Origin: Escherichia coli
GTDB lineage: Bacteria > Pseudomonadota > Gammaproteobacteria > Enterobacterales > Enterobacteriaceae
Length of the DNA stretch: 64,000 bases
Reading direction: 5' to 3' (one strand)
NCBI RefSeq assembly: GCF_003334315.1
Contig: NZ_QOWR01000008.1
The notes below the pieces were generated by a model. The model did not search any database and was not told the origin of the DNA. It saw nothing but the letters and a program-made list of their open reading frames with translations. This document shows, piece by piece, positions 56,540 to 60,116 of this stretch. Each line of letters opens with the position of its first letter. Position 1 is the stretch's first letter. A program made the translations under genes and the position numbers.

Positions 56540-56999
56540 GCAGGTATCCCCATCGTTTACCAGTCCAGCACATCTTGTGGTCAGGCAGAAGAAGAGCAAA
56601 CTGTTACTGGACTCACTGCATGCATGGTGGAGAAAAATGCCACGCTATCCAAAAATCCAGACTGGGAGAATGGTTCAGCTGTGTACTGAATCAGTGGGGC
56701 GCACTCTGTTATTACAGTGTTGACGGTCAGGCGGAGGCAGACATAATGCCGCGGAAAAAGCCCTTTGTGCCATCTGTCTCGGAAATAAAAACTTTATGTT
56801 CTTCGGCGGCGAGCGCAGTGCACTGTTGTATGGGCTTATCGGCACTTGCCTTCTGAACGACATTGATCCGGAAGCGTATCTGCGCCATATCCTGAGCGTA
56901 CTGCCGGAATAACCTTCCAACCGTATTGATGAACTCCTGCCATGGAACGTAGTTCTCACCAATAAATAAGCATCAATATGATTCTCCATTAACGCTTAC
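56540..56999 (+). pseudogene. IS66-family transposase (TnpC-like) 3' remnant with terminal inverted repeat
   Basis: shifted frames encode ...FGGERSALLYGLIGTCLLNDIDPEAYLRHILSVLPE... and ...ELLPWNVVLTNK*, typical IS66 TnpC C-terminus; downstream TGATTCTCCATTAACGCTTAC looks like IS66 IR; left boundary uncertain. Confidence 0.55.
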
Positions 57000-57107
57000 C
57001 TTTTCTCAGGCTATTTTTGCTTTTTTTTGCTTTTCCCCGCCACTTTATGGTGATTATCACATCAATATACATCGATAGATATTAACGTAACTGAAGTGAG
57101 GTGAAGC

Positions 57108-58322
57108 ATGAAATTTGAACGCCATCATGAAATATTGAAACGACTCAGTAAATTCGGTTCTGTAAAAGTATCCGATCTGTCCAATAGCCTCAATGTAACG
57201 AAAGAAACTATTCGTTCAGATCTTAATGAACTTGCCAGGCTTGGCTATCTGACTCGATGTCATGGCGGTGCTTTTATCGTCCTAGACTCGCTTGATACTA
57301 TTGCGAAAAATGAAATCGCTTATGCGCTTGAAAATTATGATACAGCCCAGGGAATAAAAAAAGGCCACTCAACTATGAAAAGTCAAGTATGCGTTATTGG
57401 TTCGTTTAATGTTGATATCATCAGTTATTTGCCGAGGCTTCCCACTATCGGAGAATCGCTTCTGGCAAGTAATTTTATATTTTCACCGGGGGGAAAAGGC
57501 TGTAACCAGGCGCTGGCAGCAAGCTTTGCCGATACTGATGTTTATTTCATAACAAAAGTAGGTACAGATCACTTTAGTGATTATGCGATCAACTTTATGA
57601 ATTCGTCTAAGATTTATAAAAGTATAATTTATCAAACGAAAGAAACGCAAACCGGAACTGCCACGATCCTTGTTAATGAAGGTACTGGCGATAATGTTAT
57701 TGCGATCTATCCCGGTGCCAACATGACAATGTCGTCCGATGAAATAACTATTCAGAAAGAAGCGATTATTAATTCTGATGTCATACTTCTGCAGCTCGAA
57801 ACAAATTATACCGCTCTGCAACAAGCGATCACATTGGCGCAAAAAAACAGTATCCCGGTCATTATTAACCCGGCACCCTATAATGATATCGTCAACGAAC
57901 TTATTCAGGATGTTGATTATATCACCCCCAATGAAACAGAAGCTGGTTTACTGTCCGGCATAGACGTACACGATCTTGAATCAGCTAAACGAGCTGCAGA
58001 AGCTATCCACAATAAAGGGGTAAAAAACACGGTTATCACGCTCGGTAGCAAGGGCTCGCTCGCATTTGATGGCAAAAAATTCATTCATTCGCCAGCGTTT
58101 CCAGCGGTCGTTAAAAATACGGCAGGAGCCGGGGATGCGTTTAACGGCTCTCTGGCATCAGGACTTGCGAAAGGAAAATCACTGGAATCAGCACTGTGTT
58201 ATGCCAGCGCCTTTGCATCCCTAGCGGTGGAGACAAGCAATGCTTCCGACATGCCTGAACATGAATCTGTGATACATCGAATTCAGAGTATACATTATCA
58301 GCAAACTATTTTTACGCATTAA
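57108..58322 (+). CDS. fusion protein: N-terminal DeoR-type HTH plus PfkB-family (ribokinase-like) sugar kinase
   Basis: N-terminus HEILKRLSKFGSVKVSDLSNSLNVTKETIRSDLNEL (DeoR HTH); kinase motifs SPGGKGCNQALAA and NTAGAGDAFNG; low GC. Confidence 0.7.
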   Translation: MKFERHHEILKRLSKFGSVKVSDLSNSLNVTKETIRSDLNELARLGYLTRCHGGAFIVLDSLDTIAKNEIAYALENYDTAQGIKKGHSTMKSQVCVIGSFNVDIISYLPRLPTIGESLLASNFIFSPGGKGCNQALAASFADTDVYFITKVGTDHFSDYAINFMNSSKIYKSIIYQTKETQTGTATILVNEGTGDNVIAIYPGANMTMSSDEITIQKEAIINSDVILLQLETNYTALQQAITLAQKNSIPVIINPAPYNDIVNELIQDVDYITPNETEAGLLSGIDVHDLESAKRAAEAIHNKGVKNTVITLGSKGSLAFDGKKFIHSPAFPAVVKNTAGAGDAFNGSLASGLAKGKSLESALCYASAFASLAVETSNASDMPEHESVIHRIQSIHYQQTIFTH

Positions 58323-58335
58323 GAAGGGACAGAGA

Positions 58336-59094
58336 ATGAATAACACCAAAAAATCACTAAAAGTGCTCTTTATTGGGGAATCCTGGCATATTCATATGAT
58401 TCATTCAAAAGGATATGACAGTTTTACCTCAAGTAAATATGAAGAAGGTGCGACCTGGTTACTCCAGTGTCTGAAAAATAGTCAGGTAGATGTCACCTAT
58501 ATGCCAGCACATACGGTACAAATTGCCTTCCCTGAAGATGTGGCACAGTTAGAACAATATGATGCCATCGTTATTAGTGATATTGGTAGTAATACTTTCC
58601 TGCTACAAAATGATACTTTTTATCAGCTTCGCATAAAACCAAACGCTCTCGAACTGATTAAAGAATATGTGAATAACGGTGGTGGGTTATTGATGATTGG
58701 CGGCTATCTCTCATTCATGGGAATTGAAGCAAAAGCCAATTATAAAAATACAGTTCTGGCTGATGTGCTCCCGGTTACGATGTTAGATGGTGACGATCGT
58801 GTCGAAAAACCAGAGGGTGTTATTGCACAGCCATCACAACCTGAACATCCAGTTATTAAAGGGTTCTCTGAATATCCTTTTTTCCTAGGTTATAACCGGG
58901 CGATCGCTAAAGAAAATGCTGAGGTGGTATTAACAATAAACAACGCTCCATTACTGGTCTTTGGTAACTATCACAACGGGAAAATAGCCTGCTTTATGAG
59001 TGACTGTTCACCGCACTGGGGTACACAGCAGTTTATGTCCTGGCCGTTCTATACCGCGTTGTGGGTAAATATACTGACTCATATTGCAAGATAA
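58336..59094 (+). CDS. hypothetical cytoplasmic protein, possibly ThuA/class-I glutamine-amidotransferase-like fold
   Basis: 252-aa ORF 14 bp after kinase gene on same strand; fold assignment is a weak impression only. Confidence 0.5.
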   Translation: MNNTKKSLKVLFIGESWHIHMIHSKGYDSFTSSKYEEGATWLLQCLKNSQVDVTYMPAHTVQIAFPEDVAQLEQYDAIVISDIGSNTFLLQNDTFYQLRIKPNALELIKEYVNNGGGLLMIGGYLSFMGIEAKANYKNTVLADVLPVTMLDGDDRVEKPEGVIAQPSQPEHPVIKGFSEYPFFLGYNRAIAKENAEVVLTINNAPLLVFGNYHNGKIACFMSDCSPHWGTQQFMSWPFYTALWVNILTHIAR

Positions 59095-59150: not shown

Positions 59151-60116
59151 ATGAAAAAGAATAAGTACTCAACTCCCTTATGGATGCTTGCCACGATTCT
59201 TGCGGGTATGCTCTCCCCTATGCAATCAGCGGTGAATGGTCAATTAGGTCACTGGTTACAGGATGGTAATGCATGCGCAGTTATCTCCTTTGCCAGTGGT
59301 TTAGTCGTGATGTTTTTTATTATTATGGCGCGAAAAGAAACCCGGCAACAATTTGCGGCAATTCCTTCTCTGATTAAAAACCGAAAAGTTTCTCTCTGGA
59401 ACTGGTTTGCCGGTCTCTGTGGAGCGATGGTGGTATTTTCTGAAGGCGCATCAGCCAGCGCACTCGGGGTCGCAACGTTTCAAACCGCACTGATCTCCGC
59501 GCTATTGCTGTCTGGTTTACTTTGCGATCGCTTTGGTATCGGTGTCGACGAGAAAAAATACTTTACCCCTTATCGCATCATCGGTGCATTATTTGCGGTT
59601 ATTGCTACGATTTTTGTTGTGTCACCTCAGTGGCATTCTACCTCTTTCATCTTACTTGCCATTCTTCCGTTCTTAGCTGGTTTGCTTGCAGGATGGCAGC
59701 CCGCTGGAAATGCAAAAGTAGCTGAAGCTACGGGATCCATGCTGGTTTCAATCACCTAGAATTTCATCGTTGGATTTTGTGTTTTAGGCACAGCGCTAGC
59801 TATTCGTGTCGCATTAGGGCACGTCACTGTTCAATTACCAGATGTCTGGTGGATGTATCTTGGCGGCCCGCTTGGACTAATGTCTATCGGTTTAATGGCC
59901 ATTTTGGTCAGAGGTCTGGGGTTACTGATGCTGGGGGTTGCTTCAACGGCGGGCCAGTTACTGGGATCAGTATTGATTGACGTATTAATTCCATCGCTGG
60001 GCAATAGCGTTTATCTGGTCACGATCATCGGAACACTGTTTGCACTGGTCGGTGCAATTGTTACCACTATTCCGGAATACAGAACCTCGAAAACAATGAA
60101 GAAAATGGAGGTATAA
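59151..60116 (+). pseudogene. YdcZ/DUF606-like DMT-superfamily inner membrane protein interrupted by in-frame TAG
   Basis: ORFs 59151..59759 and 59853..60116 share one frame; the 31 codons between them have no other stop; both halves hydrophobic; N-terminus SPMQSAVNGQLGHWL resembles YdcZ. Confidence 0.55.

What the first reader, a model, noticed from the sequence alone, without database searches (positions are those of the whole stretch)
57108..58322. Single polypeptide combining a DeoR-type HTH with a complete PfkB sugar kinase
The first 60 or so residues read as a DeoR-family helix-turn-helix. The rest carries the two PfkB hallmarks (GG motif SPGGKGCNQA and catalytic GAGD motif NTAGAGDAF) and lacks the usual DeoR C-terminal effector domain. 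This suggests a one-component system where the metabolic kinase is also the DNA-binding regulator, or where the HTH tethers the kinase. An internal Met near residue 90 (MKSQVCVIGS) could also give a kinase-only isoform.
Basis: seen in the sequence. Interest (0 to 1): 0.6.

Follow-up and report, generated by a model that had tools for sequence, protein, structure and literature searches.

The report
E. coli rikA: HTH-fused ribokinase gene
This is the E. coli copy of rikA, a ribose kinase gene described in Salmonella in 2026, and comparison across species suggests that its never-tested DNA-binding head and an internal second start codon are both kept by selection, so it probably makes a long regulator form and a short enzyme form.

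Summary
ORF 57108-58322 (404 aa) carries a DeoR-type winged HTH (residues 5-56, Pfam E 5e-15), a variable linker, and a complete PfkB ribokinase domain from Met90. There is no DeoR C-terminal sensor domain.

It is not new. It is the E. coli orthologue (80% identity, same four-gene operon) of Salmonella STM3547/RikA. McCormick et al. 2026 showed ribose kinase activity, noted the DeoR HTH, and detected only a ~35 kDa product consistent with a start at Met90. RefSeq already names the gene rikA.

What I add is comparative:
- The HTH is under purifying selection across Enterobacterales and Orbales.
- M1 has a strong Shine-Dalgarno sequence.
- The Met90 position is a start codon (ATG or GTG) in 15 of 15 lineages.
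- The fused gene always heads its operon, with no other regulator.
- A conserved upstream module travels with it: a tandem T-rich 10-bp repeat plus a CRP-like TATGR-N6-TCACA.
- About 11% of E. coli carriers have a natural Q81* stop between the two domains.

Best model: a two-product gene, a long sugar-sensing autoregulator and a short kinase. DNA binding is untested. Interest is modest.

The parts
57013..57034 (+). T-rich tandem direct repeat (ATTTTTGCTTTTTTTTGCTTTT; two ~10-bp units yTTyyGyTTw). Candidate operator for the DeoR-type HTH.
   Evidence: It is invariant T/G columns in an 8-genus promoter alignment. It is present at a fixed distance from the TATGR site in 13 of 14 promoters, including operons with different cargo. 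The core TTTTGCTTTTTTTTGC has one exact match in the window. The functional assignment is inference.
57046..57061 (+). TATGGTGATTATCACA: a conserved imperfect inverted repeat TATGR-N6-TCAC(A/T). It is CRP-like (8 of 10 to TGTGA-N6-TCACA) and is an alternative operator candidate.
   Evidence: ATCACA is invariant across 8 genera. The element is found 46-55 nt upstream of the ATG in 12 of the 13 matching lineages, and at 64 nt in Acerihabitans, where the start codon is uncertain. It is the only exact match in the 64-kb window, with 0.26 expected by chance. The CRP assignment rests on the textbook consensus and is not tested.
57098..57104 (+). Shine-Dalgarno sequence GAGGTGA for the M1 start
   Evidence: The anti-SD duplex is -9.2 kcal/mol, in the top 1% of positions in the gene. 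A comparable SD is present in nearly all 15 lineages.
57108..58322 (+). rikA long ORF (404 aa): HTH_DeoR, linker and PfkB ribokinase
   Evidence: It is 80% identical to S. enterica RikA/STM3547. RefSeq names it 'ribokinase RikA'.
57108..57278 (+). Winged HTH domain (residues 1-57)
   Evidence: Pfam HTH_DeoR E 4.9e-15. AF2 gives the H-E-H-H-E-E topology. It has 11 invariant residues in 82 homologues and 14 in the 22-sequence alignment. dN/dS is 0.11-0.29.
57279..57374 (+). Variable linker (residues 58-89). It includes codon Q81 (57348-57350, CAG here), which is TAG in some E. coli, and the SD-like AAAGG at 57360-57364.
   Evidence: Mean pairwise identity is 0.20, against 0.51 for the HTH and 0.56 for the kinase. 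pLDDT is below 50 for residues 78-90. The Q81* allele is shown. The internal SD-like tract is shown.
57375..57377 (+). Internal start codon ATG (Met90) for the kinase-only isoform
   Evidence: The codon is ATG in 12 of 15 and GTG in 3 of 15 lineages. In 82 proteins the position is M in 68 and V in 10. The Salmonella product is ~35 kDa (PMC13432705).
57375..58319 (+). PfkB ribokinase domain (residues 90-404) with the GG motif (57483-57512) and the catalytic GAGD motif (58116-58142, D343)
   Evidence: PfkB E 1.2e-64. E 3e-52 to E. coli RbsK 1GQT/1RKD, with the ribose-binding and catalytic residues aligned. Foldseek TM 0.9 to 1RKD. These residues are invariant in 82 homologues.
58336..59094 (+). 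Operon gene 2: GATase1_like protein (STM3548 homologue)
   Evidence: PF07090 in the Salmonella, Citrobacter, Providencia, Orbus and Budvicia syntenic loci.
59151..60116 (+). Operon gene 3: DMT_YdcZ transporter, inactivated here by W203* (TAG at 59757-59759)
   Evidence: Other E. coli have TGG. The exact allele is found in 600 of 2039 records.
60119..61153 (+). Operon gene 4: phosphotriesterase-related (PTE fold) hydrolase
   Evidence: (PRK09875 E 4e-31, below cutoff; weak match to phospho-furanose lactonase).

Best explanation
rikA is a two-product gene that heads a horizontally acquired four-gene sugar-catabolic operon. Translation from M1, which has a strong SD, gives a 404-aa protein. In it a DeoR-type winged HTH is tethered by a flexible ~30-residue linker to an active PfkB ribokinase, which takes the place of the usual DeoR sensor domain. 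Translation from the conserved internal start Met90 gives the 315-aa kinase alone. The long form is proposed to dimerise through the ribokinase lid, as RbsK does. It would bind the conserved module upstream of its own gene, either the tandem T-rich repeats or the TATGR-N6-TCACA element, with CRP probably using the latter. It would change DNA affinity when the kinase domain binds ribose or a related furanose and ATP, so the operon is controlled by its own first enzyme. The short form supplies most of the catalytic activity and could also form mixed dimers with the long form. What is shown: the architecture, the orthology to RikA, kinase activity and the ~35 kDa product in Salmonella (literature), and conservation of the HTH, both start signals and the upstream DNA module. 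What is inferred: DNA binding, the identity of the operator, the sign of regulation (repressor or activator), ligand control and heterodimers.
For: Architecture and fold. Orthology and synteny with STM3547-3550: and PMC13432705. HTH maintained by selection: 14 invariant residues across homologues that are 45-82% identical to the window protein, 11 invariant in 82 sequences, mean identity 0.51 against 0.20 for the linker, and dN/dS 0.11-0.29. All full-length homologues (>=375 aa) among the top 120 hits carry both PF08220 and PF00294, apart from one 356-aa metagenomic entry. M1 SD is strong in nearly all lineages. Internal start: ATG or GTG in 15 of 15, and all three Val codons are GTG (codon-usage chance 0.012). 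SD-like tracts give Fisher p 2e-5. Local mRNA structure is weaker than the gene average in 14 of 15, Fisher p 0.003. Met elsewhere in the linker is 27 of 2846 residues, against 68 of 82 at position 90. The fused gene is the first gene and the only HTH protein in five different operon types. The upstream module is conserved with fixed geometry irrespective of cargo. Ribose-binding and catalytic residues are identical to RbsK and invariant. A precedent for a kinase-HTH regulator with substrate- and product-controlled DNA binding is archaeal RbkR (PMC5397151).
Against: No DNA-binding or regulatory experiment exists for any member. [quoted passage not shown] That assay used clarified lysate only, and tagged full-length RikA was insoluble in the same study. 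In E. coli and Salmonella the internal SD is weak (-3.2 and -3.4 kcal/mol, about the 25th percentile). The consensus promoter scan found no sigma-70 promoter inside the conserved module. The T-rich block could be an UP-like element, and the TATGR site could simply be a CRP site. About 11% of E. coli carriers tolerate Q81*, and about 29% have a broken transporter, so the locus may be under relaxed selection in E. coli. The lineages used for the statistics are phylogenetically related, so the p-values are optimistic.
Confidence: 0.55

Rival explanations
1. The annotated N-terminus is not used, and the real gene starts at Met90 (the working conclusion of the Salmonella paper). The HTH-coding stretch would be a relic of an old fusion or a mis-called 5' extension.
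For: Only a ~35 kDa product was recovered from the native translation signals, and RikA(90-404) complements fully. Met90 aligns with the start Met of RbsK and DeoK, and plain ribokinases begin at query residues ~83-94. Q81* is tolerated in ~11% of E. coli carriers.
Against: A non-translated relic would not keep 11-14 invariant residues, a Pfam-significant HTH and dN/dS of 0.1-0.3 across proteins only ~45% identical. It would not stay free of stops or frameshifts in 82 homologues. It would not keep a strong SD 6 nt upstream of M1 in nearly every lineage. The Salmonella assay looked only at soluble protein, and the full-length form was insoluble.
Confidence: 0.1
2. Only the full-length protein is translated. 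The 35 kDa kinase arises by proteolytic cleavage in the disordered linker, and Met90 is a historical leftover of the ancestral kinase start.
For: M1 has a much stronger SD than Met90 in E. coli and Salmonella (-9.2 and -7.8 against -3.2 and -3.4 kcal/mol). AF2 predicts residues 78-90 to be disordered and exposed. The published identification was a MALDI peptide-mass fingerprint with no N-terminal sequencing reported.
Against: Met or GTG-Val persists at this one position in a linker that is otherwise only 20% identical and rich in indels. SD-like tracts and reduced mRNA structure accompany it. The Q81* allele still leaves an open kinase ORF, which gene callers start at M90 (P0008, 825 member sequences).
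Confidence: 0.15
3. The long form is a transcriptional activator rather than a repressor. It would bind the T-rich repeats upstream of a class-II-like CRP site, or act as a CytR-like anti-activator of CRP.
For: The T-rich repeats lie upstream of the CRP-like element, ending 10-11 nt before it, with the ATG only 46-55 nt after it. That places the repeats near -60 to -80 for any plausible transcription start. This position is typical of activators (established knowledge; FucR in the DeoR family is an activator, and the NCBIfam model is named 'L-fucose operon activator').
Against: Most DeoR-family proteins are repressors (established knowledge). The transcription start is not mapped, and the TATGR element itself overlaps the likely -35 region and could be the operator. 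There is no experimental data.
Confidence: 0.2
4. The HTH has a non-transcriptional role, such as tethering the kinase to the nucleoid, protein-protein interaction or solubility control. The conserved upstream DNA would be just the promoter, an UP element and a CRP site.
For: The T-rich block resembles A/T-rich UP-like sequence, and TATGR-N6-TCACA fits CRP at 8-9 of 10 positions. No operator has been demonstrated.
Against: The HTH is a standard DeoR-family DNA-binding domain, 45-59% identical to those of canonical ~255-aa DeoR/GlpR/AgaR-type regulators. None of the five operon types has another regulator. The T-block is a sequence-specific tandem repeat with conserved G/C at a 10-bp period, for example CTTCCGTTTACTTCCGTTTC in Pectobacterium, rather than a plain A/T tract.
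Confidence: 0.05

Closest known systems
Salmonella enterica RikA (STM3547), McCormick, Jabbar & Escalante-Semerena, Mol Microbiol 2026 (PMC13432705)
   Same: It is 80% identical over all 404 residues, with the same HTH_DeoR plus PfkB architecture, the same Met90 and catalytic D343, and the same downstream genes (GATase1_like, DMT_YdcZ, PTE). RefSeq names the E. coli protein 'ribokinase RikA'.
   Different: In E. coli the locus sits in a degraded, low-GC islet next to cobUST, flanked by IS66 and ISL3 remnants and a truncated ggt. Its transporter gene carries a nonsense codon in this strain. The E. coli protein itself has not been assayed.
E. coli ribokinase RbsK (PDB 1RKD/1GQT), PfkB family
   Same: The kinase domain has the same fold (TM 0.9, 36% identity). 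The ribose-binding and catalytic residues are identical (N14, D16, G41/42, K43, N46, E143, D255 correspond to N101, D103, G128/129, K130, N133, E231, D343).
   Different: RbsK has no DNA-binding domain and is regulated by a separate LacI-type repressor, RbsR. RikA scores below the TIGR02152 equivalog cutoff (284 against 299.65 bits), and its kcat is about 10-fold lower in Salmonella.
Canonical DeoR/GlpR/AgaR-family regulators (HTH_DeoR plus DeoRC)
   Same: The N-terminal winged HTH is a bona fide family member (Pfam E 5e-15; 45-59% identical to the HTHs of ~255-aa regulators). It includes the R-x-H-G-G-A segment after the wing.
   Different: The C-terminal DeoRC sugar-phosphate sensor domain is absent and is replaced by a catalytically competent kinase.
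Bifunctional enzyme-regulators ('trigger enzymes'): archaeal RbkR (riboflavin kinase plus wHTH, PMC5397151), and from general knowledge BirA, NadR and PutA
   Same: One polypeptide joins an active small-molecule kinase or ligase to an HTH. In RbkR, DNA binding is stimulated by the co-substrate and suppressed by the product, which is the logic proposed here.
   Different: The enzyme fold is unrelated (PfkB) and the HTH family is different. No DNA binding has been shown. A conserved internal start that also yields an enzyme-only isoform is not, to my knowledge, a described feature of those systems.
E. coli YeiI (HTH plus PfkB sugar kinase, uncharacterised) and ROK-family repressors (Mlc, NagC)
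   Same: These are sugar-kinase-type domains fused to an N-terminal HTH. YeiI is listed among hypothetical transcription factors and is a PfkB protein. NCBIfam PRK09954 aligns to the kinase part only.
   Different: YeiI belongs to the pseudouridine-kinase branch, its HTH is not matched here, and its function is unknown. ROK proteins have a different kinase fold, and the repressors have generally lost catalysis (general knowledge).

Membership tests
PfkB carbohydrate kinase family (ribokinase branch) | Pfam PF00294 domain with the ribokinase-like alpha/beta fold | tested here: met
   PF00294 E 1.2e-64, residues 92-382. Foldseek TM 0.9 and rmsd 2.0 A to 1RKD.
PfkB carbohydrate kinase family (ribokinase branch) | Signature 1 (GG dipeptide) and signature 2 (GAGD with the catalytic Asp) | tested here: met
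   SPGGKGCNQA at 126-135 and NTAGAGDAF at 337-345. G128, G129, K130, G340-D343 are invariant in 82 homologues. D343 is essential in Salmonella RikA.
PfkB carbohydrate kinase family (ribokinase branch) | Ribose-binding residues of RbsK conserved | tested here: met
   The alignment to 1GQT places N101, D103, K130, N133, E231 and D343 opposite RbsK N14, D16, K43, N46, E143 and D255. The ligand list is from memory of Sigrell et al. 1998.
PfkB carbohydrate kinase family (ribokinase branch) | Scores above the NCBIfam equivalog cutoff for bacterial ribokinase (TIGR02152) | tested here: not met
   284.2 bits against a cutoff of 299.65. PRK11142 scores 253 against 341. It is a ribokinase-like paralogue, not an RbsK equivalog.
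PfkB carbohydrate kinase family (ribokinase branch) | ATP-dependent phosphorylation of D-ribose | not testable with these tools
   This was shown for the 80%-identical Salmonella protein (PMC13432705), not for the E. coli protein.
RikA (STM3547) orthologous group | High full-length identity to STM3547, including the N-terminal extension and Met90 | tested here: met
   80% identity at 100% coverage to S. enterica P0007.
RikA (STM3547) orthologous group | Conserved neighbourhood of STM3548-3550 homologues downstream | tested here: met
   GATase1_like, DMT_YdcZ and PTE are in the same order in the window, Salmonella L082, and Citrobacter, Providencia, Orbus, Budvicia and Moellerella. The Hafnia contig ends within the transporter gene, so its PTE gene is not seen.
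DeoR family of transcriptional regulators | N-terminal HTH_DeoR domain (PF08220) | tested here: met
   E 4.9e-15, residues 5-56. AF2 gives a winged HTH.
DeoR family of transcriptional regulators | C-terminal DeoRC effector-binding domain (PF00455) | tested here: not met
   No DeoRC hit among 18 Pfam hits at E<=10. The C-terminal part is PfkB. It therefore shares only the DNA-binding domain and is not a canonical DeoR-family regulator.
DeoR family of transcriptional regulators | Sequence-specific operator binding that controls adjacent sugar genes | not testable with these tools
   Only candidate sites were identified, at 57013-57034 and 57046-57061.
Bifunctional enzyme-regulators (trigger enzymes, e.g. 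RbkR, BirA, NadR) | Catalytic activity and ligand-modulated DNA binding in one polypeptide | tested here: inconclusive
   Catalysis is inferred from the orthologue. DNA binding is supported only by conservation of the HTH, operon position and upstream motifs.
ROK family repressors/kinases | ROK (PF00480) sugar-kinase domain | tested here: not met
   There is no ROK hit in Pfam. The kinase is of the PfkB fold.

The most novel reading that the evidence does not exclude
Across Enterobacterales and Orbales, HTH_DeoR-PfkB genes may form a family of self-contained 'regulator plus enzyme from one ORF' modules. M1 would give a ribose- or furanose-sensing transcription factor that uses a live kinase as its sensor. 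A conserved internal ATG or GTG would give the free kinase. The ratio of long to short subunits, including mixed dimers with a single HTH, would set operator occupancy. The gene together with its T-rich-repeat and TATGR operator cassette would act as a portable control head that has been placed in front of at least five different cargo operons.
Probability: 0.3. Interest if true: 0.6.

Novelty: already known. Interest (0 to 1): 0.35.

Why it matters
The gene and its odd architecture are already published and named, so the finding is not a discovery. The comparative results sharpen an open point left by the 2026 paper, which concluded that RikA 'appears to begin at Met90' and left the DeoR domain unexplained. 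The HTH, its strong ribosome-binding site and a co-travelling upstream DNA module are all maintained by selection. That argues the long form is made and functional, and that the locus is a compact model for a transcription factor whose sensor is an active enzyme, produced alongside an enzyme-only isoform from the same ORF. Natural E. coli alleles (intact, Q81* split, transporter-null) offer ready-made genetic material to test this. It also bears on annotation, because databases alternately call this protein 'DeoR family transcriptional regulator', 'PfkB family carbohydrate kinase' and 'ribokinase'.

Tried and rejected
- **Genome-collection scan.** 78 of 80 loci were ordinary unfused ribokinases, and only L002 and L003 were useful. 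I switched to exact-protein look-ups.
- **Representative-library search with residues 1-89.** The top hits were short fragments, followed by canonical ~255-aa DeoR regulators. It showed the HTH is a normal DeoR-type domain, but it did not map how far the fusion extends beyond Gammaproteobacteria.
- **Solved structures.** No entry covers both domains and there is no close DeoR-HTH structure, so no template exists for operator contacts.
- **Rfam.** There is no riboswitch or leader RNA.
- **PADLOC.** Only weak generic HTH matches appeared, so this is not a defence system.
- **Consensus promoter scan.** It found one site, at 56953-56982 in E. coli-specific sequence, and nothing within the conserved module. 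My -35/-10 reading (TTATCA 57054-59, GATATT 57078-83) is by eye only.
- **Literature search for DeoR/AgaR operator architecture.** It was swamped by the word 'agar'. The resemblance of the T-rich repeats to AgaR-type operators is from memory only and is not used as evidence.
- **Supplement of the RikA paper.** The protein was identified by MALDI fingerprint with no N-terminal sequence reported, so it cannot separate internal initiation from proteolysis.
- **Recognition helix against repeat sequence.** I looked by eye for covariation between clades. The helix is nearly invariant, so this was uninformative.
Full report
**Observation.** The ORF exists exactly as described. It runs 57108..58322 on the + strand and encodes 404 aa with no internal stop. 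Pfam finds HTH_DeoR at residues 5-56 (E 4.9e-15) and PfkB at 92-382 (E 1.2e-64). No DeoRC sensor domain appears even among weak hits. NCBIfam places the C-terminal part nearest bacterial ribokinase (TIGR02152, 284 bits, just under the 299.65 cutoff) and the N-terminus nearest AgaR-type HTHs. The two quoted motifs and the internal MKSQVCVIGS (Met90, ATG 57375-57377) are present. An AlphaFold2 model built on 82 homologues (mean pLDDT 85.8) shows a canonical winged HTH at residues 2-56. It also shows a low-confidence helix at 64-81, a disordered tether at 78-90 (pLDDT below 50), and a confident kinase domain starting at residue 93. Foldseek matches only ~300-aa ribokinases (TM about 0.9 to E. coli RbsK 1RKD). 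No solved structure covers both domains.

**Identity.** The window is E. coli chromosome. The gene lies in a low-GC islet (0.40-0.46 against 0.50-0.53 in the flanks) next to tRNA-Asn, ldtA and cobTSU. The islet is flanked by an IS66 fragment, a truncated ggt and an ISL3 pseudogene. The cluster is present in 1923 of 5426 complete E. coli genomes. RefSeq annotates the protein as 'PfkB family carbohydrate kinase' or, in newer records, 'ribokinase RikA'.

The name comes from McCormick, Jabbar & Escalante-Semerena (Mol Microbiol, June 2026; PMC13432705). They showed that Salmonella STM3547 has ribose kinase activity and that D343 is essential. They noted that PROSITE predicts a DeoR DNA-binding domain at residues 2-57. 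They also found that a C-terminally tagged protein expressed from its native translation signals is ~35 kDa, the size expected for a start at Met90, and that RikA(90-404) complements. They state that they cannot exclude the long isoform under other conditions, and they did no DNA-binding work. The window protein is 80% identical to the Salmonella protein over its whole length. It is followed by the same three genes: GATase1_like, DMT_YdcZ and PTE.

**Is the HTH a live part of the protein?**
- Among the top 120 homologues, every full-length entry (>=375 aa) except one 356-aa metagenomic entry carries both PF08220 and PF00294. This holds down to ~45% identity and across Salmonella, Citrobacter, Klebsiella, Budvicia, Providencia, Hafnia, Pectobacterium, Rahnella, Brenneria, Tatumella, Gilliamella and Orbus.
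- In a 22-sequence alignment the HTH has 14 invariant residues (R5, I9, V21, V30, E33, T34, R36, D38, L39, L42, R50, G53, G54, A55). Eleven remain invariant in 82 sequences.
- Mean pairwise identity is 0.51 for the HTH, 0.20 for the linker and 0.56 for the kinase.
- dN/dS for the HTH is 0.11-0.29 in pairs where dS is not saturated.
- A strong Shine-Dalgarno sequence sits ~6 nt upstream of M1 in nearly all 15 lineages for which I obtained DNA. In the window it is GAGGTGA (57098-57104), at -9.2 kcal/mol, in the top 1% of positions in the gene.
- The nearest non-fused relatives of the HTH are ordinary ~255-aa DeoR/GlpR/AgaR-type regulators, 45-59% identical.

Together these argue strongly that the long form is translated and functional over evolutionary time. 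The Salmonella experiment does not contradict this. It examined only clarified lysate on Ni spin columns, and the same study found tagged full-length RikA insoluble.

**Is the internal start real?**
- Position 90 sits at the end of a linker that is otherwise 20% identical and rich in indels.
- It is Met in 68 of 82 homologues and Val in 10. The four exceptions are Ala in two, Thr in one and Gly in one. The two Ala cases are followed by Val or Ile, and the Thr case has Met at -1.
- Met makes up only 27 of 2846 residues elsewhere in the linker.
- At the DNA level the codon is ATG in 12 of 15 lineages and GTG in 3 of 15. All three Val cases use GTG, which has a codon-usage chance of about 0.012, or less impressive if Providencia and Moellerella count as one event.
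- SD-like purine tracts precede it (AAGGGG, AGAGG, TAAGGA, GAGGAG, AAAGGA). The combined p is about 2e-5 against in-gene background.
- Local mRNA structure there is weaker than the gene average in 14 of 15 genes (Fisher p about 0.003).
- These p-values ignore relatedness and are optimistic. In E. coli and Salmonella the tract is weak (AAAGG with 10-nt spacing; -3.2 and -3.4 kcal/mol).

Together with the published 35 kDa product, the most economical reading is a conserved dual-initiation gene. Proteolysis in the disordered tether remains a rival, because the published identification was a peptide-mass fingerprint.

**Context argues for a regulatory role.** In every lineage examined, the fused gene is the first gene of a short co-directional catabolic cluster that contains no other HTH protein. 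The cargo differs between lineages:

| Cargo downstream of the fused gene | Lineages |
|---|---|
| GATase1_like + DMT_YdcZ + PTE | E. coli, Salmonella, Citrobacter, Budvicia, Providencia, Moellerella, Hafnia, Orbus |
| Nucleoside hydrolase + transporters | Gilliamella, a second Salmonella paralogue |
| DHDPS-like aldolase + DUF386 + MFS | Rahnella, Pectobacterium |
| ABC transporter + ADP-ribosylglycohydrolase | S. bongori |

Several of these cargos plausibly release ribose, which fits a ribose-sensing kinase domain. The RbsK ribose-binding and catalytic residues are all conserved and invariant.

**Upstream DNA module.** Upstream of all these genes lies the same two-part module with fixed geometry.
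- The first part is a tandem ~10-bp T-rich direct repeat (yTTyyGyTTw twice). In the window it is ATTTTTGCTTTTTTTTGCTTTT at 57013-57034. In Pectobacterium it is CTTCCGTTTACTTCCGTTTC.
- It ends 10-11 nt before the second part, TATGR-N6-TCAC(A/T), which in the window is TATGGTGATTATCACA at 57046-57061.
- That element lies 46-55 nt before the ATG in 12 of the 13 matching lineages. In Acerihabitans the distance is 64 nt, and its start codon is uncertain.
- Citrobacter carries a variant left half (TACGG) and did not match the search pattern.
- Each element occurs once in the 64-kb window as an exact match.
- The spacers between the elements have diverged completely.

The second element matches the CRP consensus at 8-9 of 10 positions and may be a CRP site. 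The tandem repeat is my preferred candidate for the HTH operator. These assignments are inference. The consensus promoter scan found nothing inside the module and the transcription start is unknown, so I cannot say whether the long form would repress or activate.

**Natural variants.** In this window the fusion is intact (codon 81 is CAG, 57348-57350). The transporter gene, however, carries W203* (TGG to TAG, 59757-59759). That exact 63-nt allele is in 600 of 2039 E. coli records. Other E. coli, such as strains 2011C-4315 and PCP06101, have an intact transporter but carry Q81* (CAG to TAG) nine codons before Met90, together with C51Y in the HTH. That exact allele is in 220 of 1968 records. It explains the 315-aa, M90-start cluster P0008 with 825 member sequences. 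It gives a natural split allele for experiments. It also hints that the islet is under relaxed selection in E. coli.

**Comparison with known systems.** The kinase part is a member of the PfkB ribokinase branch but is not an RbsK equivalog, because it falls below the cutoff. [quoted passage not shown] Functionally the nearest validated analogue is archaeal RbkR, a riboflavin kinase fused to a wHTH. [quoted passage not shown] From general knowledge, BirA, NadR and PutA are further analogues. E. coli YeiI is another HTH-PfkB protein but is uncharacterised. ROK repressors are analogous in logic but have a different fold. Rfam and PADLOC searches found nothing relevant.

**Verdict.** The entity is already known and named. 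The regulatory interpretation is plausible and is now better supported by comparative evidence, but it remains untested. I put about 0.55 on the two-product autoregulator model. The rivals are the unused N-terminus (0.1), proteolysis only (0.15) and a non-transcriptional role (0.05). The activator-versus-repressor question stays open within the main model. Interest is 0.35. The fusion type fits a known concept and is published. The conserved dual start and the portable operator cassette are a modest, directly testable extension.

Noticed in passing
window 59757-59759 (within the DMT_YdcZ gene 59151-60116): An in-frame nonsense codon W203* (TGG to TAG) splits the operon's transporter gene into two ORFs. 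Other E. coli (L094-L096) have TGG. The exact 63-nt allele is in 600 of 2039 E. coli records (~29%), so the pathway may be non-functional in this strain's lineage.
   Followed up: yes
L095:1849-1851 and L096:1849-1851 (equivalent to window 57348-57350): Some E. coli carry Q81* (CAG to TAG) in the rikA linker plus C51Y in the HTH. This naturally splits the gene into an 80-aa HTH peptide and a kinase ORF starting at M90. The exact allele is in 220 of 1968 records (~11%), and it corresponds to the 315-aa cluster P0008 (825 member sequences).
   Followed up: yes
window 60119-61153: The PTE-fold gene scores far below the PhP cutoff but shows weak similarity to 'phospho-furanose lactonase' (NF045706, E 8e-11). 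Together with the kinase, this suggests the operon's true substrate could be a furanose lactone or similar, with ribose phosphorylation a side activity, as the Salmonella authors also suspect.
   Followed up: no
L087, L090, L089, L085, L086 (paralogous fused genes): Paralogous HTH_DeoR-PfkB genes head different cargo operons: nucleoside hydrolase plus nucleoside or MFS transporters, ABC transporter plus ADP-ribosylglycohydrolase, and DHDPS-like aldolase plus DUF386 plus MFS. Salmonella genomes can carry up to three such paralogues (80%, ~60% and ~47% identity to the window protein).
   Followed up: partly
window ~56574-56912, 61193-61485, 61565-63184: The rikA islet (GC 0.40-0.46) is bounded by an IS66 transposase fragment upstream and by a truncated gamma-glutamyltransferase plus an ISL3 transposase pseudogene downstream. 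In Salmonella the neighbouring ggt is intact (580 aa, L082), so E. coli seems to have acquired a piece of a Salmonella-like ggt region by IS-mediated transfer next to cobUST and tRNA-Asn.
   Followed up: partly
window 56953-56982: The only sigma-70 consensus-like site in the region (TTCTCA-18-TATGAT) lies in E. coli-specific sequence between the IS66 remnant and the conserved module. It could give IS-adjacent read-in transcription that bypasses native control.
   Followed up: no
window 63468-63953 and beyond: Downstream of the ISL3 remnant there are zinc-ribbon-domain ORFs. In the reference strain these are followed by an IS100 element and an inovirus Gp2-family gene, which looks like further mobile-element debris unrelated to rikA.
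   Followed up: no
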